In this document: piece after piece, positions 6,687 to 64,000 of the stretch
Position numbering within the stretch: the stretch's first letter is position 1
Layout: each line of letters starts with the position of its first letter
IMG/VR virus record: IMGVR_UViG_3300027801_002517
Location: 93,370-157,369 of that record
Origin: a virus
Direction: 5' to 3' (one strand)
DNA length: 64,000 bases
Notes under the pieces: generated by a model
The model's database searches: none
The model's input: the letters and a program-made list of their open reading frames with translations, nothing else
Told to the model about the DNA's origin: nothing
Position numbers and translations under genes: made by a program

Positions 6687-6705
6687 ATTAGGCTCCCGTA
6701 AAGAG

Positions 6706-6972
6706 TGGAGATGGGGGGAATCGAACCCCCGTCCTGTATAACCACAAATAATAATCTCATTCACATGTTTAGCCTCTAAGAGGCGATCTCAGCTTATACG
6801 ACAGTATATCCAGCTTGGGTTTACAGGGTGCTAGACAACCCCTACTGCTACGCAGCGAGTGCAAAACTAGTAGTTTTAGCATCTATTGTTTAGTCAGCTT
6901 TTTACGAGGCCCACTGACCAACCTCGACATGCGATCATTACCATTAATTATCAGTCAATTCCAGTCATCCCC
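6706..6972 (-). ncRNA. ssrA: tmRNA (SsrA), tag peptide (A)AKTTSFALAA
   Basis: Acceptor GGGGATG/CATCTCC-A with G3:U70; T-arm GGGGTTCGATTCCCC; PK1 CGAGG..GGTCAG..CCTCG..CTGACT; tag ORF 6880-6848 ending LAA-stop. Confidence 0.96.
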
Positions 6973-9125: not shown

Positions 9126-9197
9126 TGGGAATGCCCAGATTCGAACTGGAATCAAATGTTTAGAAGACATTTATGTTATCCGTTACACTACATTCCC
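9126..9197 (-). tRNA. tRNA-Arg(TCT), CCA not encoded
   Basis: GGGAATG/CATTCCC acceptor, AATGT-CTTCTAA-ACATT anticodon arm, TTCGAAT T-loop. Confidence 0.9.
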
Positions 9198-18877: not shown

Positions 18878-18912
18878 TTGTCAACTCCTATTTATAATAA
18901 AACTTACTACAG

Positions 18913-18997
18913 TAGCCGAAGCGGGACTCGAACCCGCACGCCCATTACGGGCACAGGATTTTAAGTCCTGAGTGTCTGCCTATTCCACCATCCGGCC
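18913..18997 (-). tRNA. tRNA-Leu(TAA), long variable arm
   Basis: CAGGA-CTTAAAA-TCCTG anticodon arm; GCCCGTAATGGGC variable arm; GGTTCGAGTCC. Confidence 0.93.
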
Positions 18998-20860: not shown

Positions 20861-21488
20861 TTTATAATGATCCAAAAGGTGATCAATAAACTACATCTAT
20901 CCAATGTATTATAGCTGCCTATTCACAAGAGTGATGGATTTATTGGTTTTTTCTGTGGTTTTCTTTTTTAATATTTTAATTGTGGGTTTTTCTCCCAATA
21001 GTGAGAATAATAGAAAACATTTCTGGGGATTATTACCCAATATAGTTATACGTTTTATGGTTATTGTATGTCAAGGCTATCTTATCCTAAATATGCACTT
21101 TATCAATGAAAACAAAGCCCTAATAATACTACTAATATAATGACTAATACAAGGATTACTGTTGACATGAGGATTTTTTAAGTTGTGATAAGTTTATAAT
21201 TTCAACCACGACCCCATACAGCAAGCCAAAACCCAGTAAAAACATTGGTGGAATTGATATTTCGGCCTCACTCGACGCGGTCGAACCGTGTGCATGTGCG
21301 GCCCAAATACGGCCTCTAGACGGCTGATTCTGGTGATTCATAAGACTCAAAAATGGGGCAAAAGTGTTTTTTTTTACGGGGAAACACTTCAACATTCTCG
21401 AAAAAGCCAGTGTTTTTGTCATTTTTGGGAAATCGCTATATGAGACGATTAGCTGAGACACGGCCCAAATGAGGCGAAATGGCCCTTT

Positions 21489-21742
21489 TCGCTGACTATA
21501 CGTTATCGGGCGATGCTTATAGATTGACTGGGACATCACCCCCTTTTCGCTGACTGTCAAACAACTGGCGAGTATGATAGATTGGGCTTGACACAGCAAT
21601 GTAAAAATGCTATAATTCAAATAGTCCCAAATCTCGCTGACTGTTGAACACCTGGCGATGCTATAGGATCAGATGGGACAAATGGTCCAGTTTTCGCTGA
21701 CTGTCTAACAAGTGGCGATGCCCGAGGATCGGGCGGGACAAA
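21489..21742. repeat. Four degenerate repeats of about 50 bp, TCGCTGACT-N11-GGCGA...GAT-N5-(G)GGACA
   Basis: Copies start at 21489, 21547, 21634, 21694. Confidence 0.8.
21588..21616 (+). promoter_or_regulatory. Perfect sigma70 promoter, antisense to the region
   Basis: TTGACA-N17-TATAAT with TG extended -10. Confidence 0.75.
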
Positions 21743-21747
21743 CGAAA

Positions 21748-21820
21748 TGGGTCCAGTAGGACTCGAACCTACAACCAACGAATTATGAGTTCGCTGCTCT
21801 AACCATTGAGCTATGGACCC
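21748..21820 (-). tRNA. tRNA with CAT anticodon (probably Ile2/lysidine type, possibly elongator Met)
   Basis: GGGTCCA/TGGACCC acceptor; GCGAA-CTCATAA-TTCGT; no initiator features. Confidence 0.88.
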
Positions 21821-21829
21821 CAACCTGAA

Positions 21830-21904
21830 TGACCCTAGCGGGATTTGAACCCGCGTTGCTGGAATGAAAATCCAGTGTCCTAGACCTAACTAGACGATAG
21901 GGCC
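21830..21904 (-). tRNA. tRNA-Glu(TTC)
   Basis: CTGGA-TTTTCAT-TCCAG anticodon arm; GGTTCAAATCC. Confidence 0.92.
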
Positions 21905-21910
21905 GCATAA

Positions 21911-21984
<74 letters not shown>

Positions 21985-22552: not shown

Positions 22553-22601
22553 TAGAGCAAGCCCAACAGTACACTAATTAACAAGATAACACGAATTGAT
22601 G

Positions 22602-22679
22602 TAAGTCGTTTGGTGGTAAGGAGTTAGGGAAATCGGGGCGGGCCGCGTCGGCCCTAAGTCCTTTGGTGGCAAGGGTTTA
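22602..22679. repeat. Paired-palindrome element E1
   Basis: TAAGTCGTT-TGGTGGT-AAGGAGTTA, 28-bp GC linker, TAAGTCCTT-TGGTGGC-AAGGGTTTA. Confidence 0.92.
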
Positions 22680-22699
22680 GGTCAATTACTATTTTAAAG

Positions 22700-22755: not shown

Positions 22756-23694
22756 CTATGCGATCAGTTCCAGAGCCAGTTTCTCAGCTTTGTGAACAGC
22801 CTGAGAATTCCCAGCTTTGAGAACCCTGTCGAAATCATTGTTGAATGACTTGCGTCGAGTTGCATCGTGCTGCTCGTATCCCTGCACGGCATTGTATGCA
22901 AGCCATGCGTTGGGATTCCGCAGGTCGAAATCGACGTTACTACGCCGCATCTCACCACTCAAACGCTTGAGAATCAATTCTGTACGATTCTTGTGAACCG
23001 TCACCGCACGTTTGCCAGCATCCTCGACAGGCTCTGGATAGATCTCATTCAAGAAATCTCGCATGTCAACTGTCTGTTGACTCATTTGCTTGATCATGGC
23101 AGTCAGATCGCACCACGATTCTTTGAGCATTGAGAATGCTCCGATCAGTTCATCCATTTGACCACGAAGACCAGAAGTGTGACGAATTGATCGAGAAAAC
23201 GACTCGACAGATTTCATCATTGACAGATTCAAACACATGTCACGGAAGAATCCAATCTCAGCTTTGAAGCCTCGACCATCATAACCACCGTTGACCATGA
23301 ATCGCGGGAAGATGTTGTCACCACCGGCAACATTGAACATATCACGACGATCCTCATTCGAAGGTGCAAATTGAACAAAATGACCATTGCGAAAGTGGCA
23401 ACGGACATTTGTATCACCGTCGAACGCTTCGGCAGCGGCTTCAGTGATTGCCAAAATGTCATCCGTATTGTGCGGAACATATCGGGCAGAAACTGATTTG
23501 CCAACACATTCGCTGTTGTCAGATCGGAACAATCCGAAATGAGGCGTTCGCATATTGTCGGGGCCGTACAGTGGAAACTTGTCAACCGAAAAGTTGAAAG
23601 TGTTCTGGACGGTTTCCAGTGCGGTGTCAGTTGTTAAAGTCGTCATTCTACGTTCTCCAAAAAAGGGGTTGTTTGCGACTCGTTGTCGCGTCAT
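22756..23694 (-). CDS. DUF932-family phage/plasmid protein
   Basis: FRSDN..CVG.VS.RY.P, NGGYDG, FRDMCLN, IRHT, WLAYNAVQGYEQH; probable start MTTLT at about 23646. Confidence 0.75.
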   Translation of the reverse strand: MTRQRVANNPFFGERRMTTLTTDTALETVQNTFNFSVDKFPLYGPDNMRTPHFGLFRSDNSECVGKSVSARYVPHNTDDILAITEAAAEAFDGDTNVRCHFRNGHFVQFAPSNEDRRDMFNVAGGDNIFPRFMVNGGYDGRGFKAEIGFFRDMCLNLSMMKSVESFSRSIRHTSGLRGQMDELIGAFSMLKESWCDLTAMIKQMSQQTVDMRDFLNEIYPEPVEDAGKRAVTVHKNRTELILKRLSGEMRRSNVDFDLRNPNAWLAYNAVQGYEQHDATRRKSFNNDFDRVLKAGNSQAVHKAEKLALELIA

Positions 23695-23700
23695 ACAGGT

Positions 23701-23729
23701 ATTATACCTTAATTATCGGCAGTTGTATA
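23701..23729 (-). promoter_or_regulatory. sigma70-type promoter with GCCGATAA in the spacer
   Basis: TATACA-N17-TATAAT. Confidence 0.7.
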
Positions 23730-23824
23730 GCTCAGCCTTAGTGATTAGGGCTTATTTCTCAAAGTTTTCCAAAGTATTTCGGCGGCAATCGGTAAAGATA
23801 GGGCAAGACATCCCAGAATCGTCG

Positions 23825-23902
23825 TAAGTCGTTGGTATCAAAGGAGTTACGACGCTCGCAGCCCGCCCCCGGCGTCCTAACCCCTTGCGGGGTAAGGACT
23901 TA
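23825..23902. repeat. Paired-palindrome element E2 (inverted relative to E1/E4/E5)
   Basis: TAAGTCGTT-GGTATCA-AAGGAGTTA, 28 bp, TAACCCCTT-GCGGGGT-AAGGACTTA. Confidence 0.92.
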
Positions 23903-23918
23903 CGGCGACGTTTTGCTG

Positions 23919-24191
23919 TCATTCCTCCCAGATTAAGTCATCGTCCGTAATTTCCCCATTCTCGTCATCCACCCCAAACAGAGTATCCCAACAATCCCCA
24001 CAAGTTCCCGAAATTAGTAATTCCCTCTCATCTTCAGTAAGATAATACAAAACATCCTGAATCAATTCACCCTCCTGCCATTCCTTGTAGTCCGATGGTT
24101 TTACCCGAATACTATGTGCATTCGAACATTTCCAACATTCTACTTTGACATTATCCATTGCATCACCTGTTTTATTCATTGTCAGAATCAT
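23919..24191 (-). CDS. Small Zn-finger hypothetical protein
   Basis: CWKC...LIQD...ERELLISGTCGDCWD. Confidence 0.65.
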   Translation of the reverse strand: MILTMNKTGDAMDNVKVECWKCSNAHSIRVKPSDYKEWQEGELIQDVLYYLTEDERELLISGTCGDCWDTLFGVDDENGEITDDDLIWEE

Positions 24192-24260
24192 TGTACTTTA
24201 CTCCAAAAATTACCACTGCGAACATAATAAAAATACACAAAAACAAATCACCGGCATTTT

Positions 24261-25031
24261 TCATGCGGTTTGTGCCTTCCCATAGCTAAACCTCTTTCCA
24301 TCTTTTTTGAGTTGCTTGATTGCGTCCGCTGCCTCAGATCCTTTCGGTTGAATGCCATGAATAATAAGGGCAAAATCATCATTTCCCCAAAACGGATTTG
24401 CTGCGTGTGTGTCATCGTGATCGACTTCCAAACCCAGCATATCGGCTTCCTCATAAGAGAACACTACTTTCGCAGATCGTAGACCATAGTCTACAATCAT
24501 ATCGTCACGGCGTCCACCATAACTTGCGGTAAGAATCAGATTATCGGGAATAATTTCCAGATTATCAACCCAATAAGGTAAAGACTTAGTATAAGCATAG
24601 AACAATCGGTCTGGATTCATGATTGCCGTTCTAATCCATGCTTCAAAGTATGCCGGGCTGAAGAAATCACCAGCAACGTGAATTCGGCAGATTCCCAGAT
24701 TCTTCGGCATCTGGTCACGAATAATCGAAACCATCTCACCAGCAGACTTACCACGCAAATTGTCAAAATTCTTCTTGCGAGAATTGTACACGTTCGTATA
24801 TGTGGCTTCCTGTGATGCACTGAAACAGCGAAATTCTGTTTTCTTGCCGTCCACAACTTTCCGCTTACCATCTACAATTTTTACCTTACTCAAACATTGT
24901 TCAGCAAACGGACACGAGTGACCAGACAATAGATCGAACGAATAAACTTTACGCTTATTCTCAAGATATACTTGCAGATCAGGATGATCGACCATTGCTT
25001 GCAATTTGTTGTTGGCTTTTGAGAATGACAT
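24261..25031 (-). CDS. Gp88-like phage protein
   Basis: GHSCP...C...CF, RIHVAGDFFS, FYAYTKS, NLILTAS motifs. Confidence 0.7.
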   Translation of the reverse strand: MSFSKANNKLQAMVDHPDLQVYLENKRKVYSFDLLSGHSCPFAEQCLSKVKIVDGKRKVVDGKKTEFRCFSASQEATYTNVYNSRKKNFDNLRGKSAGEMVSIIRDQMPKNLGICRIHVAGDFFSPAYFEAWIRTAIMNPDRLFYAYTKSLPYWVDNLEIIPDNLILTASYGGRRDDMIVDYGLRSAKVVFSYEEADMLGLEVDHDDTHAANPFWGNDDFALIIHGIQPKGSEAADAIKQLKKDGKRFSYGKAQTA

Positions 25032-25058
25032 AGTCGCTCCTCCAATAGGGGAAAAGTG

Positions 25059-25517
25059 TTACGCGGTGAATTGTACCACAACTTCGGAACCATAGCAATG
25101 GCCAATGGCCATATCCACGAATTTTGCACGTTCTATAGGTTCTCCGTTCGTATTTGCCAACACAAACGAATCGTATTTGTACGGGTTATAGGTGACTGGC
25201 TTGAAAGGTAGCGGCAACCGATTTTCCCACTGCTGTTTTGGATCACACCAAAAACCACGAACAAACGCATGAACATTCTTTTGAGCATTCTTCAACACTC
25301 GCAAACGTCCGGCTTGTGACACTATAAACTCAGCATCCTGCAAACAAATGTAATCTGTGTGAAATTGAACAATTCTGTTCTGCCGGATTGACCAGCAATC
25401 TTTGTGGAGATTTTTGTAAACTTCAATCGGTTTACTGAAATCCAGTTTGGTGCGACATAACTCAGCAAGTCTAGAATCCGTCTTATGAACATTAATACAA
25501 TGAGTTTTACGCGGCAT
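25059..25517 (-). CDS. Conserved-type hypothetical phage protein
   Basis: VYKNLHKDCWSIR, VSQAGR.RV...KNVHAFVRG, YNPYKYDSFV. Confidence 0.7.
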   Translation of the reverse strand: MPRKTHCINVHKTDSRLAELCRTKLDFSKPIEVYKNLHKDCWSIRQNRIVQFHTDYICLQDAEFIVSQAGRLRVLKNAQKNVHAFVRGFWCDPKQQWENRLPLPFKPVTYNPYKYDSFVLANTNGEPIERAKFVDMAIGHCYGSEVVVQFTA

Positions 25518-25549
25518 GGTCGTTCTCCGTTGAGGCTAAGATACTCCCC

Positions 25550-25578
25550 ATTATATCATATCGTCCATATGATGTCAA
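25550..25578 (-). promoter_or_regulatory. Perfect sigma70 promoter
   Basis: TTGACA-N17-TATAAT; GACGATA in the spacer. Confidence 0.85.
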
Positions 25579-25716
25579 GGACTTTAGTCAAAATTGGCTA
25601 ACTCGCTAACTCACTGGCTGTACTATAAAAACGCAACCCTTTAGGGTTAGATGGGACATCCCACACAATAGCAGGTGTGGTGCGAATGCCCAAGTTCTCA
25701 AAAATAACAATCGACG

Positions 25717-25794
25717 TAAGTGTATGGTATCAAAGGACTTACGACAAAACCGGCCCGCCCCGCCCGCCCTAACCCCTTACGGGGCAGGGACTTA
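25717..25794. repeat. Paired-palindrome element E3 (same orientation as E2)
   Basis: TAAGTGTAT-GGTATCA-AAGGACTTA, 28 bp, TAACCCCTT-ACGGGGC-AGGGACTTA. Confidence 0.92.
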
Positions 25795-25811
25795 CGGCGA
25801 CACAACACAAT

Positions 25812-27475
25812 TTACATGTCAACAATTTTCTTGGTCGAGAAACAGCGGGTGCCACCCCGAACCTCGTCAACGGTCAGATATGGACCATTCGGCCCCTTAC
25901 CCTTACCAACCACAACACCACTTACATTCCGAAGAATGTTAAACTTTCCATGTCGTGGATACATAAACTTTACAGTGCTACCAATTCGCTTGTGTGTCTT
26001 AATCATTAAACTTCTCTTTCTACGGTTTTAAAAGATACTTTAAACTCATTTCCTGCCTTCTTAATCATAACACCGTCGTGCAGGATTTTAACAACGGTGC
26101 CAATCTCTAGCTCAGTTCCTACTTTAATTATTGGTGTCTGATTCAAACTCACTCCTCATTAAAAATTGTGCTTGTTGTTCTTCCAATAACTCCATTGGAA
26201 TAAAGTCCGGAAACATTTTTACCGCCCAATTTGCAGCCTCTGAGTTATCGACGAATAACCTTTCATCAAATGAGTCGCAAGGTGGCTTTACAAGTATTTC
26301 ACTTCCCGTCGATGGTCGGATAAATTTGATATGTGTATACATTCTGTAACCTTAAAAGTATTGTGGCAAATCGCCTAACATCATAGTTTTCTTTGGTTGT
26401 TCTTTTATAATGATTGTTGGCCAAACGTAGTATGCTGGTCTGTGCATTCGGTATTGTGGAAAGTTAGTATAACCGCCGATCCAACTATAAAACACAGGCA
26501 CAGGTTGAACATAGATCTTTTCAGGTTCTGCTGATTCAGCAATTCCACCCATGATACAAAACAAAGCAATAGAAAGCAAGAGATTTTTCATGGTTCGCGG
26601 GTTTCTCTAATAATGTACAGGAATGCCACTAGTGGCAGAAGTGAAAGCAAAACGGTCATAATAATAATTATTCCTCATTTTCTTTTGCTTCAATCGCTTC
26701 CAAATCACTTTTCAGACTTTCCAACTCACGTTTCTTGTCGTTCTTGATTCGGTTCAGCAAACTATCAGCCAGAATCTGTTTGTCTGAAATTGACATAGGC
26801 ACGATGACTGTACTGCCGTCTTCACAACAAATCTCTAAGTTACTCCAACAAGTAATGTGCTTCACGTTTCCAACAGTGTACGTCGTTTCAATCTTCATCT
26901 TCTCAATCTCCAAAGTAAGGTTTGTGAGTGTGTATTGTAACACACTCAAAAGACAATGTCAAGTCTATTCCCAAAAGTTTCCAAGTTCAAATGAAAAACT
27001 AATCGAACCAAGAAAGACCCCCGAAGGGCGGGGTCTTAATTGTAACACATCCAATCTCAAAAGTCAAGTTCAGCGGCCATCAAATCCGCCAGATTGTCAA
27101 GTTCTTCCTGAAATTCTCTTTTCCGTCCGTCTTCCCATTCCTGCATGAATGCCATTTCTTCCATGTTGAAACAAAGTTGCTCGTTTGGGGTTTCTTCGCA
27201 CTGAATCTCATCAAAACTGTTCATCGTGTCAATCCTTCAAGTTGAAAAGTGTCTGAGTATTGTATCAGAACTCGCCTGATGTATCAAGCCCGATCTGTGT
27301 ATTTTTTCCAAACTTTCTTGATATATTTTTCAGAGCCGAAATGATGACATCCTACTGGCTCATCATTATGATTTATCCTGATGGCCCACTTTTTGCCGTA
27401 GTTGTAGAGTTTATAATCCCAGCCAGCGAGATGATCTGGAGCCGTTGCGACGATTTTGGTTGTGTTGTTTTTCAT
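25812..27475 (-). other. Cluster of small early-type genes with promoters at 26934-26962, 27039-27067, 27259-27287, 27482-27510
   Basis: TTGAC(A/T) or TTGATA-N17-TA(C/T)AAT; ORFs 25812..26006, 26124..26342, 26352..26591, 26588..26659, 26668..26949, 27284..27475. Confidence 0.65.
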
Positions 27476-27562
27476 AGTTGTATTATACTACTATTATCGT
27501 CCAAAGTCAATGCTGTTCATTACAAAAACACACAAATAATTAAAAGTTTTTAGATATTGACG

Positions 27563-27640
27563 TAAGTCGTTACTACCAAAGGACTTAGGAATTTTGGGGC
27601 CGGGCTTCCTCGCCGTAAGTCGTTTGATACCAAGGGTTTA
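27563..27640. repeat. Paired-palindrome element E4
   Basis: TAAGTCGTT-ACTACCA-AAGGACTTA, 28 bp, TAAGTCGTT-TGATACC-AAGGGTTTA. Confidence 0.92.
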
Positions 27641-27672
27641 CGTCAGCCGATCCGATTCCTTTAGGTGAGACA

Positions 27673-27855: not shown

Positions 27856-28479
27856 CTATTCGCAACCGTATCGGTCACATTGTCGTTGTACCATGTCAGA
27901 GTATTTCTTGCGGCCTGCGACCCACTCGGGATCAGTACAACGCCAGCAACTAAACTCGTCATCGTAGGCGATTGCTTTAGCACCTTGCAGCCACATAAAA
28001 GCCAGCATTTCCCGAATGCTCAAGAAAACGCGGTTTCCGTCTTTGTTTGGGATTTCGCAGGAAAATCGGTCGTTCCAAGATACTCCAGCCATTGTTCTAC
28101 TTTCTGTTTTTCGTTCGTTGTTTGTGAGAGTGTATTGTACCAGATAAGAGGTGGAAAATGCAAGGTCAATTGCAGGCTAATTATAAACATGGTCAAGAGA
28201 ATCGGCGAATCCTGAGACTTCGTCGCCATCCTGATCGTTTCCGAAAAACTCGCCTGTAGTGGGATTGACTTCGTCAACGTGAATCCATCGGCCTTCGAAA
28301 ACCGCATCCTGTCCAGCTTCAATACCCCAGTTCGGTGTAACTTCTTCGTTGGCCGTTTCGGCCTTCTTCGCTGTCCAGCGTGCTTGGCGACGTGCCCATT
28401 TACGGGCGGTTGCTTCTTTGATTTTGATTGCTTGCTCTTGACTTGTCATCTTGTTTCCTTTTGTGTTGTTGTTTGTCAT
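27856..28479 (-). other. Two small early genes (27856..28092, 28177..28479) with promoters at about 28134-28163 and 28486-28514
   Basis: TACAAT -10 boxes, A/C-rich leaders, RBS. Confidence 0.6.
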
Positions 28480-28596
28480 ACGTGTATTGTACTATAATTA
28501 TCGACACACGTAAAGCCTGTCATCAGCATATGGGCGTTAATTTCCAAAGTATTCCAAAGTATTTATGGCATGGAATTTGCTTGCGGAAAATTGACA

Positions 28597-28674
28597 TAAC
28601 CCGTTGCTACCAAAGGACTTACGTCGCCGGGGGCGGGCCTTCCGTGTCGTAAGTCGTTACTGTGTAAGGGTTTA
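28597..28674. repeat. Paired-palindrome element E5
   Basis: TAACCCGTT-GCTACCA-AAGGACTTA, 28 bp, TAAGTCGTT-ACTGTGT-AAGGGTTTA. Confidence 0.92.
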
Positions 28675-28709
28675 CGTCGGCTTAGCTGATTCCTTTGGGT
28701 AGGACAGCT

Positions 28710-28799: not shown

Positions 28800-29459
28800 C
28801 TACTCCGCTGCTGTGCCGAATTGTTCACAGTAGCTGTCAAATGCTGCGAGGTATCCGGTGTCAACATTCTCAATGCTCTGGATTGGTTGAGCAGGATAAA
28901 AGGGATTGTAATTGAAAGTCTGATTGACAAAATCAATCTGATCTTCCCGAACACTTTGGTGATTCATTACCTGATCAGTGTCGAGATACTTAGCAATTAC
29001 GTTGAAGCGTTTCATGTTATTTCCTTTGGTGGTGTGTTGTGTGAGAGTGTATTCTACAGTTCAAAGCAGCGAATGTCAATCGCCTTGCCAAAAATCTTTG
29101 TGGTTTTTCGATGATGGTCGCGAGCGAAGATGATAGCGATTTCTTCATTCTCAGCAGAGATGATGCCTGATGTAGAAACTTCGCTGTTACCTGAAAGCGG
29201 TACGATTGTGAAAGAGTAGTGAAAGCGTTTCATTGTGTTGCCTTGTGTGTTGTTTGTTGTTTGTGATAGTGTATTGTACCATATGGTTCTGGTTGTTTCA
29301 ACCCTAATTCGTGTAGATTTCGTAAGTATTGCAGTTTTTGTGAGATTTCTTGTCTGATACGTTTACTGTGAGTTTGTGTGTTGGTTGGGGAAGAAACACA
29401 GGTTTGTCTGATGCATGTACTGTCAGTTTGTGTGTTGGTCGTGGTAGTGGATTGATCAT
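28800..29459 (-). other. Three tiny early genes (28800..29015, 29054..29233, 29304..29459), each with its own promoter
   Basis: Promoters 29051-29079 (TTGACA-N17-TAGAAT), 29273-29301 (TTGAAA-N17-TACAAT), 29503-29531 (TTGACA-N17-TATAAT). Confidence 0.7.
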
Positions 29460-29573
29460 TGTGTTTCCTTTGTTGTGTTGTCTTTGTCTTGTGTCTCTAA
29501 GTATTATATCGGCATCATTGCCGTTTGTCAATAGCTTTGCACAAGAAAATAAAAGATATTTCCCATATTGACC

Positions 29574-29651
29574 TAAGTCATTGCTATCAAACGACTTACG
29601 TCGCCGAAAGCCCACTAGTATCGCTCTAAGTCTATACTGTACAACGACTTA
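29574..29651. repeat. Paired-palindrome element E6
   Basis: TAAGTCATT-GCTATCA-AACGACTTA, 28 bp, TAAGTCTAT-ACTGTAC-AACGACTTA. Confidence 0.9.
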
Positions 29652-29799
29652 TACAAATATAGTGGTAGGGGTTTTATCTTCAAAGATAGAATGGTGTCTT
29701 GCTGTGGAAAAAGCCAGGGTGGTGCAAACATAATTCACCAGCACCAATATCAATGTCCTACCCAATCTTACCCCCTCGCCCCTATTTATTTCGCTTGGT

Positions 29800-30170
29800 G
29801 TTTAGGTAGAGTCAAGATACAACCCGAGCATATAGCTACAACTGGTTACTACCAGTAGCTATTAACTTACCATCTGTGAGCGAACTGCAAAAGGATCATG
29901 ATTACCACTTGATGTTTGGGAGGATGCTTAAACCTCAACTCCTGAATTTTCAGTAAGTCCTCTGTCGCCAGAGCCTGATCCATTCTGTCCGATTGTTACT
30001 CTTATCGAGCAACGCTCGTAATTCTAATATGAGTACGGGTAATACTCATGCTAAACTCCAGACCATTCAGGTAATTTCTTTAAGCATTGCAGCTCGCCGG
30101 TCACACAACTGATTCGTCCACAGGACGAGATATTTGCCGGACATGGTTCAAAAAGAAATTTCCCTCTTGA
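29800..30170 (-). ncRNA. Candidate large structured ncRNA, family unknown
   Basis: ORF-free; nested long-range helices of 11, 9 and 7 bp; five hairpins; GCGA tetraloop and G-U pairs favour the minus strand. Confidence 0.6.
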
Positions 30171-30269
30171 TAAGTCACTATCTATAATATCCACAAGTAA
30201 CAGTTTTACAATGATTTTTTATGAAAATTTACCATTTTAGAATCTTTTATCCATCAAAACTACCATTTC

Positions 30270-30279
30270 GTGTATATTA
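30270..30279 (+). promoter_or_regulatory. Late-promoter-like motif GTGTATA at the start of the plus-strand arm
   Basis: Same motif at 37775, 39827, 42921, 59202. Confidence 0.6.
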
Positions 30280-30296
30280 CTATTAGGAGGTACAAC

Positions 30297-31252
30297 ATGA
30301 AAAAAGACCCAGAAGAAATTACAACTATAAAAACCGTCGTTGTTGCGAGAGCCACTGCTGATCTCTGCGATGAAATTCTCGATGATTTACAAGTTCCTGA
30401 TCCACCAGATAAATCTATGGCTTCCCTAGTCGATGAGGCTGACGAATCCAAATTATCGAGGAGGAACGACGAGTGAAGAATAAACAAATCTATAATCATA
30501 GATCGCATTCACCAGCACGAGTCATTGATGACGGTATTGAACTCATGTCACCTAAGAATGCTAATGACATAGCACCATCAGATATTGATTTTTTAAATAA
30601 TTGTAATCTGTTAAGTGATACAATTCCTGCAGATACAAATTTTTTCTATTCGTTGCGATGTAATGATTCTACGACGGAAAAACTGCTTTTTCTTGAAACG
30701 GGCTTTGGGGAATTAAAACACAGAGACGGTAGAGTATTTCTACAACGAGAATATATTTTCACTGACTTTCACCCAGATTATAATGAAATCCCCGTCCCTA
30801 CTAAGAATCATTTGAAGCCCCTGCCTGATTTTGTTAAAAACTGCATAATTTCCACACATTCACCAGCAGAATATCAAGAATTACTCATTGAAGAGCATTC
30901 TGTTGTATGTTCTATAGATAAATTTATCCCAACAATAGTTCCCCTAGAGGAAGCCACCCTACTGGGTCGCCTTGATGGACGCATACAATCTATAGACAAA
31001 GATGAACTCAAGTTTATTCTGGGTGACAACATTAAAATCGCCGTCGAGGAATCAAAAAGTCCCCTAAAGTTACAAACGGATGAATTTTCTGTAAATGGTA
31101 AGAATTCTATTATAATGACTGACCAAATTCAGTTAAGACCTATGAGATCAAGGCCAAAGCGATTTTCCGTAGGTTCCCTATATTACAATAGGGGTAAAAA
31201 GACATTTGAGTTTCATGACGGGGACAAATGGAGAACATTACTAACAGAATGA
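30297..31252 (+). other. Two hypothetical genes (30297..30476, 30473..31252)
   Basis: AGGAGG RBS; coupled ORFs. Confidence 0.6.
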
Positions 31253-31276: not shown

Positions 31277-31786
31277 GTGCAAGTACCGGAAAACATGACA
31301 GAAGAAGAAACCGTTGAAATTATTCAGCGGGTTGTTGATCGCACAGCCCCTAAGTATACATTTCACGCATATACTATTGCGGATCTGAAGCAGGAGGCAT
31401 TTATTATTTGTATGGAGGCATTGCCTCGTTATGACGGGCTTCGACCACTGGAAAACTTTCTGGCCGTTCATCTTTCTAACAGAATGAAGAATTTTGTGAG
31501 GGACAACCACTTTACCCAAAGTGACGATCCTGTTCGTATTAATATAACGCAACCGGCTCAACTTGATGAATCTTATTATATGGAGTTTGATAAGAATAAT
31601 ATTACATATGAGGACATCGATTACCGCGACATGGCAAAATTAATGGATATTCATATGCCGCCATCTATGCGGCTTGATTATCTAAAGATGATTAATGATG
31701 TCTATATTGCAAAGCCACGGCGGGATGAGATTCAAATGATGATTGAGGATATATTAGAGGAGAATGGTTACTATGAAGAGGGGTAG
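31277..31786 (+). CDS. Phage RNA polymerase sigma factor (sigma70 region 2-like)
   Basis: DLKQEAFIICMEALPRYD..RPLENFLAVHLSNRMKNFVRD. Confidence 0.75.
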   Translation: MQVPENMTEEETVEIIQRVVDRTAPKYTFHAYTIADLKQEAFIICMEALPRYDGLRPLENFLAVHLSNRMKNFVRDNHFTQSDDPVRINITQPAQLDESYYMEFDKNNITYEDIDYRDMAKLMDIHMPPSMRLDYLKMINDVYIAKPRRDEIQMMIEDILEENGYYEEG

Positions 31787-32558
31787 GATATCTAAAGAAG
31801 AAGAAAAATTTATAGAATCAAGTATGGGCGTTATGTCTATAGTTGATATCTCGGAAAAATTAGATAGAGACCCAGATAGTGTTCAGCAATTTATTAAGCG
31901 GAAATTCAAGGTCGGACTTTCTGATGAGGAAGAAGCGGCGTATGATTTGGAGGAGCGTCCTTATTGGCATGACCTAAAACAGCAATTTACCGATGATGAG
32001 TTGGTAATGTTTAAATATCACTGGTCAAGAATCATTTCTCAGTTTAAAGATGATGTAATACCCACGGAAGAATTACAGGTAATTGATTTAATTAAGCTCG
32101 ATTTGTTAATGAATAGGTCTTTGAAGGCAAATAAGGAAAATTTAAATCAAATCTCGGCTTTTGAGGCTTTAGTTCAAGAGGAGAGAGCTAAGGATTCTGA
32201 TCAGCAGGACAGAGATCATATTTTTAACTTAGAAAGACAGTGTGCTTCGCTAAAAGCGTCGATGGAGTCACTAAACCGCGATTACCGCGACCTTCAGGAT
32301 AAAAAGAACAAGATGTTGAAGGAGATGAAGGCTACTAGGGAGCAACGGGTCAAAAGATTAGAGGACAGTAGGCAATCTTTTACGGGTTGGCTAACATATC
32401 TTATTAGTAATCCCGAACTTAGTAGGCAATATGGTATTCAGATGGAAAAAATGAGACTTGCAATGTCAAAAGAGAAAGAAAGGTTAAGTTCATACCATAA
32501 ATATGGAGATGGGCAGGTAGATCAACCATTTTTAACACCGGATACCGTCAAGGAGTAA
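31764..32558 (+). CDS. HTH plus coiled-coil protein (possible terminase small subunit)
   Basis: N-terminal SIVDISEKLDRDPDSVQQF helix-turn-helix; long coiled coil; function inferred from position only. Confidence 0.4.
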   Translation: MVTMKRGRISKEEEKFIESSMGVMSIVDISEKLDRDPDSVQQFIKRKFKVGLSDEEEAAYDLEERPYWHDLKQQFTDDELVMFKYHWSRIISQFKDDVIPTEELQVIDLIKLDLLMNRSLKANKENLNQISAFEALVQEERAKDSDQQDRDHIFNLERQCASLKASMESLNRDYRDLQDKKNKMLKEMKATREQRVKRLEDSRQSFTGWLTYLISNPELSRQYGIQMEKMRLAMSKEKERLSSYHKYGDGQVDQPFLTPDTVKE

Positions 32559-61581: not shown

Positions 61582-64000
61582 ATGGCTTTTCCAGATACAG
61601 TTTTTCTACATGATAGAATAAAAGAAATTAGTCACTCTACTGGAGCTGGCAATCTCTCGTTGGATGGTGCTGCTACAGGCTTTGGTTCTTTTAGTGGTGT
61701 TTACTCAAGTGGAGATGCTATATTCTATGCGATTACTGATGGTACAAACTATGAGGTTGGTTCTGGTTACTATATAAATGATGGTAGTACTGATTCTATC
61801 GCAAGATTTGCTTTCAATAGTTCTAATAGTAATAATAATGTTATTTTTAATCCTGGCATCAAAGAAGTATTTGTAAGCTATCCTGGAGAATTTGCTTTAT
61901 TCTCTGCTGGTGGAATGGATGGGTTCACCCAGCCAGATGTCAGTGGTATGGCATTTTTTGGTAGTCAGCAGACAGTCGATTATTCTTCTAATGTTATATT
62001 TGATAAAAATAATAACAGAATAGGTATTGTTCAACCTGCCCCTTTATATTCTATTGATATTGGTGGTACTCCTGAAAAATCTTTAATGAGATCTTCTGGG
62101 GTTATTGTTGCAGAGTCTGGAATTATTTTCTCTGGTGTAAGTCCAACTCATACTTCTGCGTATTCAGGTGGTATTCAGTTAGAACCATTTATGAGGAATG
62201 AGTTAGATCCTACAACTGGATCTAATGCCATATTTTCTTTAAGTGGATTAGTTGACCAAAGAATTTTATTGAATACTCAAGTAAAAGGTTCTGTTTTTGC
62301 TGGTCCAGCAAGTGGCTGTATTGGTGCTGGTTGCAGTCCAGATTATCCGACATTTAGATATTTAGCATCGGAAGATATCCCAGATTTATCGCATTTATAT
62401 ACTGAACAGTTTGTTGACGCAGTTGGGAATGTACCGTATCAAGGAGATATCACTTACTATAAAGAGAGTGGTGTTCTCGATCATGATCATTTCTTTACCT
62501 GGGATGCAAGTAACAATCGTATTGGTATTAATAGAACAGATCCAGGTTTTACTTTGGATGTTGATGGTGATGCTTCTATTAGTGGTAATATGTATATTCA
62601 AAGTGATGCTGATATTGAAGGTCATCTTCATGTTAGTGGTAATGTCGTTATCAGTGGCAATCTTGATGTTCAGGGTGATCTAACATATATTGATAGTAGT
62701 ACTGTTACAATTTGGGATAAGCAATTAGAACTTGCTTCTATGAGTGGAACGGCCCTTTATGCAGATTCAGCACTTGATGACGCTGGTATTGTCATTAAGT
62801 CTACAAATTCCGATAAGAAATGGACTTGGCATGATTCTAATGATTCTTGGAGAACAGATGAGGGTGTGGGTGCAAGTGGTCATTTAGAGGTAAGTGGTCA
62901 CGTATCATTCGGTAATGATTTATTGGTAGCTAATACTACTACTGTCAGTGGAAATTTGAATGTAAGTGGTATATCTAACTTTAAGGGAGATGCATATTTC
63001 GTTAATGATATTACTACAAGTGGCAAATTAAATGTAAGTGGTATATCTATTTTCAATGAAGATTCATACTTTACAAGTAACGCTCCAGTTGTAATGAGTG
63101 GTACATTAGGGGTCTCTGGTGCTGTTGATTTTGATTCTACATTAAATGTAGATGGTGTAAGCACTCTTAACAGCACACTTGATGTGGACGGAGCAACGAC
63201 TCTCAACAACATACTTGATGTAGACGGGACGACAGCTCTACATAGTGATTTATCTGTGGGTGGTGATGTCATTGTTAGTGGTAATCTTGATATCCAAGGT
63301 GATGTGACATATATTGATAGCAGTACCGTTACGATTTGGGACAAGCAATTAGAACTTGGTTCTATGAGCGGAACAGCTCTTTATGGAGATTCACAACTTG
63401 ATGATGCTGGGATTGCTATCAAGTCTACAAATTACGATAAAAAATGGACTTGGAGAGATTCCAATGATTCTTGGAGAACAGATGAGGGCATTGGGGCAAG
63501 CGGTCTTTTAGAAGTCAGTGGTCATGCAACACTTGGTAATGACTTATTAGTAACTAATGATGCCACTGTTAGTGGTCTCTTTAATGCTAGTGGAAACTCT
63601 ACTTTTGACAACAATGTATTTGTGAAGGACGATACCTATACCGTTGGTAATGCTACAACCAGTGGAACGCTTAATACCAGTGGCAATGTGTTCTCCAACA
63701 GCGATACCTACACCGCTGGTAATTCTACGACCAGTGGAACGCTTAACACCAGTGGAAATGTATTCTCCAACAGCGATACCTACACCGCTGGTAATTCTAC
63801 GACCAGTGGAACGCTTAATACCAGTGGAAATGTATTCTCCAATAGCGATACCTATACCGTTGGTAATGCTACGACCAGTGGAAATGTATTCTCTCATAGC
63901 GATACCTATACCGTGGGTCATGCGACGACCAGCGGAACGCTTAATACCAGTGGCAATGTGTTCTCCAACAGCGATACCTACACCGCTGGTAATTCTACGA
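61582..64000 (+). CDS. Long tail fibre-like protein, runs off the right edge (not in ORF track)
   Basis: ATG at 61582 (MAFPDTVFLHDRIKEISHSTGAG...); paralogous N-terminus to 54292; the repeats at 63679 onward are in the same frame. Confidence 0.8.
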   Translation, partial: MAFPDTVFLHDRIKEISHSTGAGNLSLDGAATGFGSFSGVYSSGDAIFYAITDGTNYEVGSGYYINDGSTDSIARFAFNSSNSNNNVIFNPGIKEVFVSYPGEFALFSAGGMDGFTQPDVSGMAFFGSQQTVDYSSNVIFDKNNNRIGIVQPAPLYSIDIGGTPEKSLMRSSGVIVAESGIIFSGVSPTHTSAYSGGIQLEPFMRNELDPTTGSNAIFSLSGLVDQRILLNTQVKGSVFAGPASGCIGAGCSPDYPTFRYLASEDIPDLSHLYTEQFVDAVGNVPYQGDITYYKESGVLDHDHFFTWDASNNRIGINRTDPGFTLDVDGDASISGNMYIQSDADIEGHLHVSGNVVISGNLDVQGDLTYIDSSTVTIWDKQLELASMSGTALYADSALDDAGIVIKSTNSDKKWTWHDSNDSWRTDEGVGASGHLEVSGHVSFGNDLLVANTTTVSGNLNVSGISNFKGDAYFVNDITTSGKLNVSGISIFNEDSYFTSNAPVVMSGTLGVSGAVDFDSTLNVDGVSTLNSTLDVDGATTLNNILDVDGTTALHSDLSVGGDVIVSGNLDIQGDVTYIDSSTVTIWDKQLELGSMSGTALYGDSQLDDAGIAIKSTNYDKKWTWRDSNDSWRTDEGIGASGLLEVSGHATLGNDLLVTNDATVSGLFNASGNSTFDNNVFVKDDTYTVGNATTSGTLNTSGNVFSNSDTYTAGNSTTSGTLNTSGNVFSNSDTYTAGNSTTSGTLNTSGNVFSNSDTYTVGNATTSGNVFSHSDTYTVGHATTSGTLNTSGNVFSNSDTYTAGNST
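63610..64000 (+). repeat. Near-identical 72-bp coding tandem repeat (SGNVFSNSDTYTAGNSTTSGTLNT)
   Basis: Units at 63679, 63751, 63823, 63877 (the unit before it is 18 bp shorter) and 63949. Confidence 0.9.

What the first reader, a model, noticed from the sequence alone, without database searches (positions are those of the whole stretch)
23825..27640. Spacer code and mixed orientation of the elements predict specific excision and inversion events
Seen: the twelve 7-bp spacers are TGGTGGT, TGGTGGC, GGTATCA, GCGGGGT, GGTATCA, ACGGGGC, ACTACCA, TGATACC, GCTACCA, ACTGTGT, GCTATCA, ACTGTAC. The left sites of E2 and E3 share GGTATCA in direct orientation, and the right site of E4 carries its exact reverse complement TGATACC. 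The linker motif reads GGGGCGGGC on + in E1 and E5 (GGGGCCGGGC in E4) but GCCCGCCCC in E2 and E3. So E2 and E3 are flipped although all surrounding genes keep one orientation. Known: tyrosine recombinases need spacer identity. Inference: E2 x E3 would excise the 1892-bp cassette carrying the Gp88-like gene, E2/E3 x E4 would invert, and other pairs would be largely orthogonal.
Basis: partly seen in the sequence, partly recalled or inferred. Interest (0 to 1): 0.75.

Follow-up and report, generated by a model that had tools for sequence, protein, structure and literature searches.

The report
Paired-palindrome boundary elements of phage early cassettes
The six repeats are real members of a widespread, apparently undescribed family of double-palindrome elements. 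They sit in a fixed helical register upstream of early promoters in a clade of uncultured phages. Gene cassettes are swapped at them by ordinary homology-driven recombination, not by a spacer-coded tyrosine recombinase.

Summary
The "spacer code" does not hold.

- **Spacers are semi-conserved.** GGTATCA is the fourth commonest spacer in the family. Twelve random draws from the family pool give an identical pair 34% of the time, and 10 of 13 large arrays share a spacer.
- **No recombinase found.** No tyrosine or serine recombinase, Y1 transposase or rve-type DDE transposase domain occurs in this genome or in four related element-bearing genomes.
- **Same polarity.** All six elements have the same orientation relative to transcription. 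Only the GC-rich linker and distal site are inverted in E2 and E3.
- **DNA sites, not hairpins.** In 420 sites from 47 arrays the arms show no base-pair covariation.
- **Tied to promoters.** 59% of elements have an outward sigma70-like promoter on one side only. The distance to the -35 clusters at 20, 31, 41, 52 and 62 bp.
- **Cassettes are exchanged at the elements.** A relative with 86-87% identical late genes keeps the elements but shares only three array genes. In another pair a cassette is present or absent between two elements, and the crossover lies in a conserved arm although the adjoining spacers differ at 5 of 7 positions.

Best reading: a PeSL-like regulatory boundary module, with a protein-binding double operator joined to an early promoter. 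The binding protein is unidentified.

The parts
22594..22686 (-). Element E1. Sites at 22602-22626 and 22655-22679; spacers TGGTGGT and TGGTGGC. It is preceded on the coding strand by an intrinsic-terminator-like hairpin at 22741-22710. No strong promoter lies next to it.
23817..23909 (-). Element E2. Sites at 23825-23849 and 23878-23902; spacers GGTATCA and GCGGGGT. The linker is C-rich on +, which is G-rich on the coding strand.
25709..25801 (-). Element E3. Sites at 25717-25741 and 25770-25794; spacers GGTATCA and ACGGGGC. It is 81% identical to E2.
27555..27647 (-). Element E4. Sites at 27563-27587 and 27616-27640; spacers ACTACCA and TGATACC. It is the orthologue of L191 element X2: the sites match at 49 of 50 positions, the linker at 15 of 28.
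28589..28681 (-). Element E5. Sites at 28597-28621 and 28650-28674; spacers GCTACCA and ACTGTGT. It is a chimera relative to L191. The left flank and site 1 resemble X3. The linker, site 2 and right flank match X5 (53 of 53 over linker and site 2).
29566..29658 (-). Element E6. Sites at 29574-29598 and 29627-29651; spacers GCTATCA and ACTGTAC. It is the orthologue of L191 element X6 (76 of 78 positions).
29503..29531 (-). Early promoter TTGACA-17-TATAAT with a GCCGATAT box. The -35 lies 42 bp from the edge of E6.
28486..28514 (-). Promoter TTTACG-17-TACAAT with a GTCGATAA box, about 82 bp from the edge of E5.
27482..27510 (-). Promoter TTGACT-17-TATAAT with a GACGATAA box, 52 bp from the edge of E4.
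25550..25578 (-). Promoter TTGACA-17-TATAAT with a GACGATAT box, 138 bp from the edge of E3.
23701..23729 (-). Promoter TATACA-17-TATAAT with a GCCGATAA box, 95 bp from the edge of E2.
23919..25517 (-). Cassette between E3 and E2. It holds an L5 gp82-like gene (25059-25517), a GP88-family gene (24261-25031) and a 90-aa zinc-ribbon-like gene (23919-24191).
22756..23694 (-). Cassette between E2 and E1: a DUF932 protein.
31277..31786 (+). Phage sigma factor (Sigma70_r2) at the start of the divergently transcribed late module. It is the conserved anchor next to which the arrays lie in relatives.

Best explanation
Each element is the upstream half of a composite regulatory boundary module in the phage's hyperplastic early region.

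**The sites are double-stranded DNA recognition sites.** The two 25-bp palindromes have half-sites of the form gNCgTAAGTCsTT. I infer that a dimeric DNA-binding protein, not yet identified and of phage or host origin, binds each one. The two sites lie on the same helical face, mostly 52-53 bp apart and in some subfamilies 41-42 or 64 bp. They flank a linker that is about 80% G+C.

**The module is tied to a promoter.** The complex sits just after the stop codon of one cassette. It lies a whole number of helical turns upstream of the -35 of the next strong sigma70-like early promoter, across A/T-tract DNA. There it most likely modulates that promoter and/or blocks read-through from the cassette upstream. 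This regulatory step is inferred.

**Recombination is a consequence of repetition.** The same conserved sequence recurs every 1-2 kb, so the elements and the adjacent promoter modules offer short homology patches. The phage's own RecA-type machinery uses these to delete, insert and replace cassettes. This behaviour matches that described for PeSLs in T4-like phages.

**Shown here:** family membership, DNA-level conservation without covariation, the promoter link and its phasing, and mosaic recombinants. **Inferred:** the existence of the binding protein, the regulatory effect, and which recombination enzymes act.
For: **A family, not a local oddity.**
- A pattern scan of viral contigs found at least 120 loci. 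Eighty-two have two or more sites, in pairs at 41-42, 47-53, 58 or 64 bp, recurring every 0.3-2 kb.
- Five whole genomes each carry one array of 7-21 kb.
- 26 of 29 sigma-anchored loci with at least 5 kb upstream have an array, always on the side away from the late genes.

**DNA sites, not hairpins.**
- In 420 unique sites the mirrored arm positions pair no more often than base frequencies predict. At position 7/19 the counts are CG 95, CC 89, GG 77 and GC 56. The same holds across the two sites of an element.
- RNAalifold on 12 elements gives -4.95 kcal/mol with a covariation term of +0.06.
- Rfam finds nothing.
- The linker is 80% GC but folds no better than shuffles (mean z -0.21).

**Link to promoters.**
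- 95 of 162 elements have a promoter scoring at least 10 of 12 that fires outward. In 94 it is on one side only. Only 14 have an inward promoter. The background is 0.108 per 220-bp window on one strand.
- The distance to the -35 clusters at 20, 31, 41, 52 and 62 bp: 8, 17, 19, 11 and 7 elements from 5-12 arrays each, with 1-3 in the troughs. Rayleigh p is about 1e-6, and a jitter control reached the observed value 0 times in 5000.
- The proximal site has a fixed polarity. Its outer half is TAAGTCG or TAAGTTG in 50 elements and TAAGTCC in 5.
- Element-linked promoters carry a KNCGAT box in 52 of 94 cases, against 43 of 349 other promoter-like hits.

**Selection on the elements.**
- Against L191, whose late genes are 86-87% identical at the nucleotide level, E6 matches at 76 of 78 positions and the E5 linker plus site 2 at 53 of 53.
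- Only 3 array genes are shared between the two phages.

**Homology-driven exchange.**
- E5 is a chimera.
- The L247/L269 cassette indel has its crossover in an identical arm, although the adjoining spacers differ.
- The L251 crossover lies in a flanking repeat outside the element.
- Gene order is permuted around the elements in L033, L052 and L057.
- A RecA-like protein and an ERCC4 nuclease are core genes of the clade.
- No known recombinase was found.

**Precedent.** PeSLs are described in PMC2839356 and PMC4122927.
Against: - No binding protein was identified. The one candidate examined, the 264-aa HTH and coiled-coil protein next to the sigma gene, looks like a small terminase. It is present whether or not arrays are present.
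- The 10-11-bp periodicity could arise from phased A/T-tract units between element and promoter, rather than from contact with RNA polymerase. Copies within an array are also not independent.
- An 80% GC linker is unusual between cooperating operator sites.
- Subclades with the same promoters and cassette genes lack the TAAGTC sites: L186, L187, L212, L218 and L246. The elements are therefore not needed for promoter activity as such.
- E1 has no adjacent promoter.
- Only 59% of elements have a promoter at the chosen threshold.
- Mosaics between metagenome contigs could in principle include assembly chimeras formed at identical stretches.
Confidence: 0.55

Rival explanations
1. The sites are core sites of a site-specific recombinase, either of an unrecognised family or supplied by the host. 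Arms bind the enzyme, exchange happens at the 7-bp spacer, and spacer identity decides which elements can recombine.
For: - The 9-13-bp inverted arms around a 7-bp variable centre have the size of lox, FRT, dif or att core sites.
- A one-cassette-plus-one-element indel exists between relatives.
- Spacers are kept between orthologous elements of the window and L191, with 2 differences in 42 bp.
- Adjacent elements share spacers slightly more often than non-adjacent ones (19.5% against 12.4%, p=0.087).
Against: - Five genomes contain no tyrosine or serine recombinase, Y1 transposase or rve-type DDE domain.
- The natural recombinant joined sites whose spacers differ at 5 of 7 positions, and its crossover lies in the arm.
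- Crossovers fall at different places, including outside the element.
- Many arrays hold several direct copies with identical sites, for example three identical left sites in L085. An active enzyme would make such arrays unstable.
- Helical phasing with promoters and a fixed polarity relative to transcription have no role in this model.
Confidence: 0.1
2. The elements act as RNA. Transcribed as the 3' end of the upstream cassette, the palindromes and GC-rich core fold into stable hairpins. These terminate or attenuate transcription, stabilise the mRNA, or serve as processing or antitermination sites.
For: - The elements lie directly after stop codons.
- On the coding strand the elements fold at about -19 to -45 kcal/mol, and at about -17 to -42 kcal/mol on the + strand.
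- For E2, E4, E5 and E6 no other terminator-like site lies between the upstream gene and the next promoter.
- PeSL stem-loops with GGGG...CCCC tracts are proven terminators (PMC2839356).
- Half-site variants such as AAGGGTTTA give G.U pairs on one strand only.
Against: - There is no covariation in any arm pairing, within sites or between sites.
- Systematic mismatches are tolerated at position 7/19.
- No U-tract follows the hairpins.
- Fold z-scores are mostly unremarkable, and the linker folds no better than shuffles.
- E1 is preceded by a canonical terminator.
- The phased spacing to the promoter is a property of DNA, not RNA.
Confidence: 0.15
3. The elements are selfish, MITE- or REP/BIME-like mobile repeats that have colonised intergenic spots in the early region and have no function for the phage.
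For: - They are discrete 93-bp units with terminal inverted symmetry.
- Their positions between orthologous genes differ among relatives.
- They are absent from some subclades, which carry other GC-rich repeats in the same places.
Against: - No transposase or RAYT was found in five genomes.
- No target-site duplications are visible at E2-E5 (reading).
- The elements are confined to one array per genome.
- Polarity and phased distance relative to promoters are fixed.
- Between the window and L191 the elements are conserved above the level of the flanking DNA and of the late genes.
- A scan of 185,579 species genomes found them only on short MAG contigs of mixed taxonomy.
Confidence: 0.08

Closest known systems
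PeSLs (promoter-early stem-loops) of T4-like phages (Arbiol et al. 2010, PMC2839356; Comeau et al. 2014, PMC4122927)
   Same: - Both are short conserved composite modules in hyperplastic early regions.
- Both combine a GC-rich palindromic part, an AT-rich stretch and a strong sigma70-like early promoter.
- Both flank small genes of unknown function.
- In both, differences between close relatives are insertions, deletions and replacements bounded by the modules.
- In both, crossovers fall at various points of the shared sequence.
- Neither system has a dedicated recombinase.
- PeSLs are predicted, and shown, to form cassette circles.
   Different: - The phage clade is different: uncultured, with a split Pol III alpha, its own sigma factor and a tmRNA.
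- The conserved part here is not a simple GGGG...CCCC stem-loop. It is two sequence-specific 25-bp palindromes with a GC-rich linker.
- These palindromes lack pairing covariation and lie in helical phase with the promoter. That points to protein recognition of duplex DNA.
- Terminator activity and mini-circles have not been tested here.
Tyrosine-recombinase core sites (loxP, FRT, dif, lambda att core) and integron attC cassettes
   Same: Inverted arms around a 6-8-bp centre. Arrays of single-function cassettes in one orientation separated by imperfect palindromes.
   Different: - No recombinase is encoded.
- Exchange is not tied to the spacer.
- Each cassette carries its own promoter.
- The sites come in phased pairs linked to promoters.
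- There are no attC-type R/L boxes or extrahelical bases.
Multi-copy operator sets of phage regulators: L5 gp71 stoperators, the conserved 17-bp palindromes of cluster O mycobacteriophages, phi29 p4 sites (recalled from memory, not tested here)
   Same: Many copies of one conserved protein-binding motif in intergenic regions, oriented relative to transcription. They control or insulate early transcription.
   Different: The sequence and architecture differ: a double palindrome plus a GC clamp, at 53-bp spacing. No cognate protein is known.
The repeat and palindrome region of the phage T5 injection stop signal (bioRxiv 10.1101/866236)
   Same: Non-coding repeats and palindromes in the first-expressed region that are conserved far better than the neighbouring genes.
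   Different: T5 has one complex locus with DnaA boxes in the terminal repeat. It does not have a unit repeated before each promoter.

Membership tests
Tyrosine-recombinase recombination sites (lox/FRT/dif/att type) | Two inverted recombinase-binding arms around a 6-8-bp asymmetric overlap region | tested here: met
   The form is TAAGTCNTT-N7-AANGACTTA. The arms are conserved in 420 sites.
Tyrosine-recombinase recombination sites (lox/FRT/dif/att type) | A cognate recombinase is encoded by the element or genome | tested here: not met
   PF00589 gives no hit in G000-G004. PF00239 gives nothing above cut-off; the one sub-threshold hit is 12.5 bits in G001. A host enzyme cannot be excluded.
Tyrosine-recombinase recombination sites (lox/FRT/dif/att type) | Exchange occurs at the overlap region and needs identical overlaps in the two partners | tested here: not met
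   The L269 chimeric element joins L247 e6626 and e7531. Their adjoining spacers differ at 5 of 7 positions, and the crossover lies in the identical arm. Other crossovers fall elsewhere.
PeSL-type regulatory cassette modules | A composite of a GC-rich palindromic element, an AT-rich stretch and a sigma70-like early promoter, repeated through a hyperplastic early region | tested here: met
   95 of 162 elements have an outward promoter scoring at least 10 of 12, and the DNA between is rich in A/T tracts. Each genome has one array next to the late module.
PeSL-type regulatory cassette modules | Indels and replacements between close relatives are bounded by the modules, with variable crossover points | tested here: met
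   Shown for the window against L191, L247 against L269, and L251 against L253.
PeSL-type regulatory cassette modules | The stem-loop acts as a transcription terminator, and mini-circles form during infection | not testable with these tools
   This needs reporter assays, inverse PCR or reads.
PeSL-type regulatory cassette modules | Occurrence in T4-like myoviruses | tested here: not met
   The best match of the large terminase among cultured phages is 25-27% identical, to Microcystis and Bacillus phages. The replication core is Pol III alpha, DnaB and DnaG.
Structured RNA or intrinsic terminator | Base pairs are maintained by compensatory change, and a U-tract follows the stem | tested here: not met
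   Observed Watson-Crick pairing equals the expected level. The covariation term is +0.06. Rfam has no hit. No U-tract follows.
REP/BIME-RAYT or MITE elements | A cognate HUH (Y1) or DDE transposase, spread through a chromosome, and target-site duplications | tested here: not met
   PF01797 and PF00665 are absent. Each genome has a single array. Among species genomes, only mis-binned short MAG contigs carry the elements.
Operator sites of a dimeric transcription regulator | Half-site sequence is conserved without pairing covariation, and position and helical phase relative to a promoter are fixed | tested here: met
   
Operator sites of a dimeric transcription regulator | An identified cognate DNA-binding protein | tested here: inconclusive
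   The one candidate (264 aa) is fold-similar to a small terminase and does not track the presence of arrays. No other candidate was found.

The most novel reading that the evidence does not exclude
The double palindromes may be synapsis sites for an as yet unrecognised phage protein. This protein would pair elements and stimulate exchange next to the bound arms. The array would then be a recombinase-assisted, integron-like cassette exchange system of lytic phages. Each cassette would carry its own promoter, and the same protein would couple cassette boundaries to early-promoter control.
Probability: 0.12. Interest if true: 0.8.

Novelty: new variant of a known kind. Interest (0 to 1): 0.55.

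Why it matters
Early regions of large lytic phages hold the fast-changing host-takeover and anti-defence genes. How these genes are shuffled without breaking regulation is known in detail only for PeSLs of T4-like phages.

This work finds an analogous but structurally different module in a large uncultured clade. The module is a sequence-specific double palindrome, phased with a particular promoter class. Natural recombinants are caught at it.

The finding offers three things:
- a marker for locating the early regions of these phages in metagenomes;
- a defined DNA bait for finding the protein that binds it;
- a testable case for whether conserved regulatory joints are a general route of modular phage evolution.

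Tried and rejected
- **Close relatives in cultured phages.** Megablast and blastn of the region and of one element against GenBank phages gave no meaningful match. No cultured relative carries the elements.
- **Rfam.** No hit at E up to 5.
- **Single-sequence folds.** They gave ambiguous long-hairpin or local-hairpin structures with weak z-scores.
- **Coding strand.** Calling it by ORF coverage or GC skew was too noisy to orient the elements. The adjacent promoter was used instead.
- **The 264-aa protein next to sigma as the binder.** PHROG gave a weak 'D5-like regulator' hit. The AlphaFold model (pLDDT 80.5) gave only weak Foldseek matches to the HK97 small terminase and MarR folds. The protein is present in loci without arrays. 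Rejected.
- **The 82-aa ORF at 30260-30508(-).** It looks like the shadow of a + strand gene at about 30297-30476.
- **An array-free whole genome for gene-content subtraction.** L219 is not held, and L212 and L246 are fragments rated 17-19% complete.
- **IHF consensus (WATCAANNNNTTR).** It fits the half-sites of some subfamilies but is one base out of register in the window. Rejected on reading.
- **Half-sites as promoters of the phage sigma.** TAAGTCSTT occurs only in the array, not upstream of late genes. Rejected.
- **GP88-anchored search.** It found only relatives 59-63% identical, with few or no elements.

Full report
**Setting.** The window is the last 64 kb of a 157,369-bp viral record that CheckV rates 94% complete. 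From about 30.2 kb downwards all genes lie on the minus strand. From about 30.3 kb upwards a late module runs on the plus strand. It begins with a small sigma factor at 31277-31786, followed by an ERCC4 nuclease, the large terminase and structural genes. The region in question is therefore the promoter-rich early region.

**The observation.** Six elements of about 93 bp start at 22594, 23817, 25709, 27555, 28589 and 29566.
- Each holds two 25-bp sites of the form TAAGTCNTT-N7-AANGACTTA, exactly 53 bp apart, joined by a GC-rich linker.
- These are the only such sites in the whole genome.
- The cassette between E3 and E2 holds an L5 gp82-like gene, a GP88-family gene and a 90-aa gene. The next cassette holds a DUF932 gene.

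- Eighty-two loci hold two or more sites, nearly always in pairs at 41-42, 47-53, 58 or 64 bp, recurring every 0.3-2 kb.
- Four related genomes of 109-233 kb were fetched whole. Each carries a single array of 7-21 kb.
- They share a core with this phage: split Pol III alpha, DnaB, DnaG, a RecA-like protein, SSB, PhoH, RNR, an ERCC4 nuclease, sigma and terminase.
- In 26 of 29 sigma-anchored loci with at least 5 kb of upstream DNA, an array lies on the side away from the late genes.
- No cultured phage has the elements.
- Among 185,579 species genomes, only 26 short MAG contigs of mixed taxonomy have them.

**DNA sites or hairpins?** I collected 420 unique sites from 47 arrays.
- Mirrored arm positions pair no more often than base frequencies predict. 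At position 7/19 the counts are CG 95, CC 89, GG 77 and GC 56. Mutual information in arm positions 1-9 is at most 0.06 bit.
- The same holds for pairings between the two sites of an element.
- RNAalifold on the twelve elements of the window and its nearest relative gives -4.95 kcal/mol with no covariation.
- Rfam finds nothing.
- The linker is 80% GC in genomes of about 35% GC, but it folds no better than shuffles.

The arms are therefore conserved as sequence, half-site by half-site. This is what a dimeric protein reading duplex DNA would produce.

**Link to promoters.**
- Of 162 elements with full flanks, 95 have a sigma70-like promoter scoring at least 10 of 12 that fires away from the element. 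In 94 it is on one side only. Only 14 have an inward promoter. The background is 0.108 per 220-bp window on one strand.
- The distance from the element edge to the -35 clusters at 20, 31, 41, 52 and 62 bp, with almost empty troughs. Several arrays contribute to every peak. Rayleigh p is about 1e-6 at periods of 10-11 bp, and 0 of 5000 jittered sets reach the observed value.
- The window's own distances fit the same series: 42, 52, about 82 and 95 bp, and less closely 138 bp (about 2.5 bp off).
- The DNA between element and promoter is rich in A/T tracts.
- Once oriented by the promoter, the proximal site is asymmetric. Its inner half is TAAGTCC. Its outer half is TAAGTCG or TAAGTTG in 50 elements against 5 with TAAGTCC, and a CGNCRAT flank follows.
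- By this criterion all six elements of the window point the same way. Only the linker and the variant half-site of the distal site are inverted in E2 and E3. Family-wide the linker occurs in both orientations: 46 G-rich on the coding strand, 16 C-rich and 32 neutral.
- Element-linked promoters belong to a class with a GCCGATA-like box in the spacer (52 of 94 against 43 of 349).

**The spacer code.**
- Spacers are semi-conserved. There are 184 types among 350 spacers, and GGTATCA ranks fourth.
- Twelve draws from the pool give an identical pair in 34% of trials, a reverse-complement pair in 33%, and both in 11%. Ten of 13 large arrays share a spacer.
- Adjacent elements share a direct spacer in 25 of 128 cases, against 27 of 217 for non-adjacent pairs (p=0.087).
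- No tyrosine or serine recombinase, Y1 transposase or rve-type DDE domain is found in this genome or in the four related genomes.

**Recombination that did happen.** L191 is collinear with the window and 86-87% identical through more than 11 kb of late genes. Its array also has six elements, yet only three small array genes are shared.
- Orthologous elements are better conserved than anything around them. E6 against X6 matches at 76 of 78 positions. The E5 linker plus site 2 matches X5 at 53 of 53. The E4 sites match X2 at 49 of 50, though the linker matches at only 15 of 28.
- E5 is a chimera. Its promoter flank and site 1 match X3. Its linker, site 2 and other flank match X5. The crossover lies in the right arm of site 1.

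In a second set of relatives, 90-93% identical in late genes, L247 has two elements flanking a cassette of about 810 bp where L269 has one element.
- That single element is L247-e6626 up to the left arm of site 2, and L247-e7531 from the spacer onwards.
- The crossover lies in 13-15 identical bases, although the two spacers differ at 5 of 7 positions.
- L251 has a similar single element, but its crossover lies further out, in a flanking repeat.
- More distant relatives have the same gene families in permuted order around the elements.

Variable crossover points inside shared sequence, regardless of spacer identity, are the signature of homology-driven exchange. The clade encodes a RecA-like protein.

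**Comparison with what is known.** The closest described system is the PeSL of T4-like phages. A PeSL is a composite of a GC-rich stem-loop, an AT-rich stretch and an early promoter. PeSLs bound indels between close relatives, recombine at variable points without a dedicated recombinase, and yield cassette mini-circles (PMC2839356, PMC4122927). The present modules behave the same way in evolution, but they differ in three respects:
- they belong to an unrelated phage clade;
- their conserved part is a sequence-specific double palindrome without pairing covariation;
- they are phased with a particular promoter class.

Some subclades with the same promoters and cassette genes lack the TAAGTC sites and carry other GC-rich repeats instead. 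The module is therefore replaceable.

**What remains open.** The binding protein is unknown. The one candidate examined is fold-similar to a small terminase and does not track the arrays. The periodicity may partly reflect phased A/T tracts. Whether the elements also stop transcription from upstream is untested. Reads could not be examined. Metagenome mosaics should be confirmed with long reads.

**Verdict.** The sequence observation is sound. The tyrosine-recombinase spacer code is not supported. The elements are best read as a new variant of PeSL-like regulatory cassette boundaries. The earlier first-stage notes of this scan on the same stretch agree on the elements (e1-5660724, e1-5660712) and on the promoter box (e1-5660726).

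Noticed in passing
window 23701-23729, 25550-25578, 27482-27510, 28486-28514, 29503-29531 (minus strand): Promoters next to elements carry a sigma28-like GNCGATA(A/T) box between the -35 and the -10. Family-wide the box occurs in 52 of 94 element-linked promoters, against 43 of 349 other promoter-like hits. In relatives without elements (L186, L187) the same promoters read TAAAGTTT-N13-GCCGATAA overlapping TTGACA-N17-TATAAT. This suggests dual sigma70 and sigma28-like promoters, perhaps read by the phage's own sigma.
   Followed up: partly
window 26934-26962, 27259-27287, 28105-28145, 29244-29301 (minus strand): A second early promoter class has an extended -10 (TGGTACAAT) followed by ACACTCTCACAAAC. 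It has no adjacent element and no CGATA box.
   Followed up: no
window 29700-30180 (minus strand): An ORF-free stretch of about 450-480 nt lies between the first leftward promoter (about 30184-30211) and E6. Other first-stage notes flag it as a candidate structured RNA. The nearest relative L191 keeps the part at 30035-30487, which also spans the first + strand gene, at 86% nucleotide identity.
   Followed up: no
window 30260-30508: The listed 82-aa minus-strand ORF has a low-complexity translation and is probably spurious. A plus-strand gene with an AGGAGG ribosome-binding site starts at about 30297. The strand switch therefore lies between about 30211 and 30290.
   Followed up: partly
window 21483-21742: There are four iteron-like repeats (TTTTCGCTGACTGTC). 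The same motif, read as GACAGCCAGCGAAAA, recurs in the relative L186. It is therefore conserved in the clade, consistent with the origin-like locus noted by the first stage.
   Followed up: partly
window 6705-6972, 9126-9197, 18912-18997, 21748-21984: The phage encodes a tmRNA (tag AKTTSFALAA) and five tRNAs (Arg-tct, Leu-taa, Met, Glu, Asp), all on the minus strand.
   Followed up: no
L218:1-10000, L187:1-10731: Subclades without TAAGTC elements have other repeated GC-rich intergenic elements in the same positions. One example is AAAATCG-CGGCGGCCC-CGATTTT flanked by CCCC...GGGG hairpins. This suggests that the inter-cassette slot is regularly filled by interchangeable element families.
   Followed up: partly
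window 28177-28479 (minus strand): This 100-aa early protein has an arginine-rich N-terminal helix (ATARKWARRQARWTAKKAE) that recalls the RNA-binding motif of lambda N. It has no homologue in L191.
   Followed up: no
G000:C1:68457-72328 (L183:8457-12328, minus strand): DNA polymerase III alpha is split into two ORFs, one with the PHP and NTPase domains and one with the finger domain. An RNase T-like exonuclease gene lies between them. The same arrangement is conserved in all five genomes compared.
   Followed up: no
G000:C1:1-200 and 157170-157369 (window 63801-64000): Both contig ends consist of copies of the same repeat unit of about 67-70 bp, inside a long open frame. The assembly probably broke in a tandem-repeat gene, and the record is likely a permuted circle rather than a true linear end.
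   Followed up: no
window 31764-32558: This 264-aa protein after the sigma gene has an N-terminal HTH and long coiled coils. Its weak fold matches are to the HK97 small terminase. It is 55-90% identical across the sigma-anchored loci examined, which is better conserved than sigma.
   Followed up: yes
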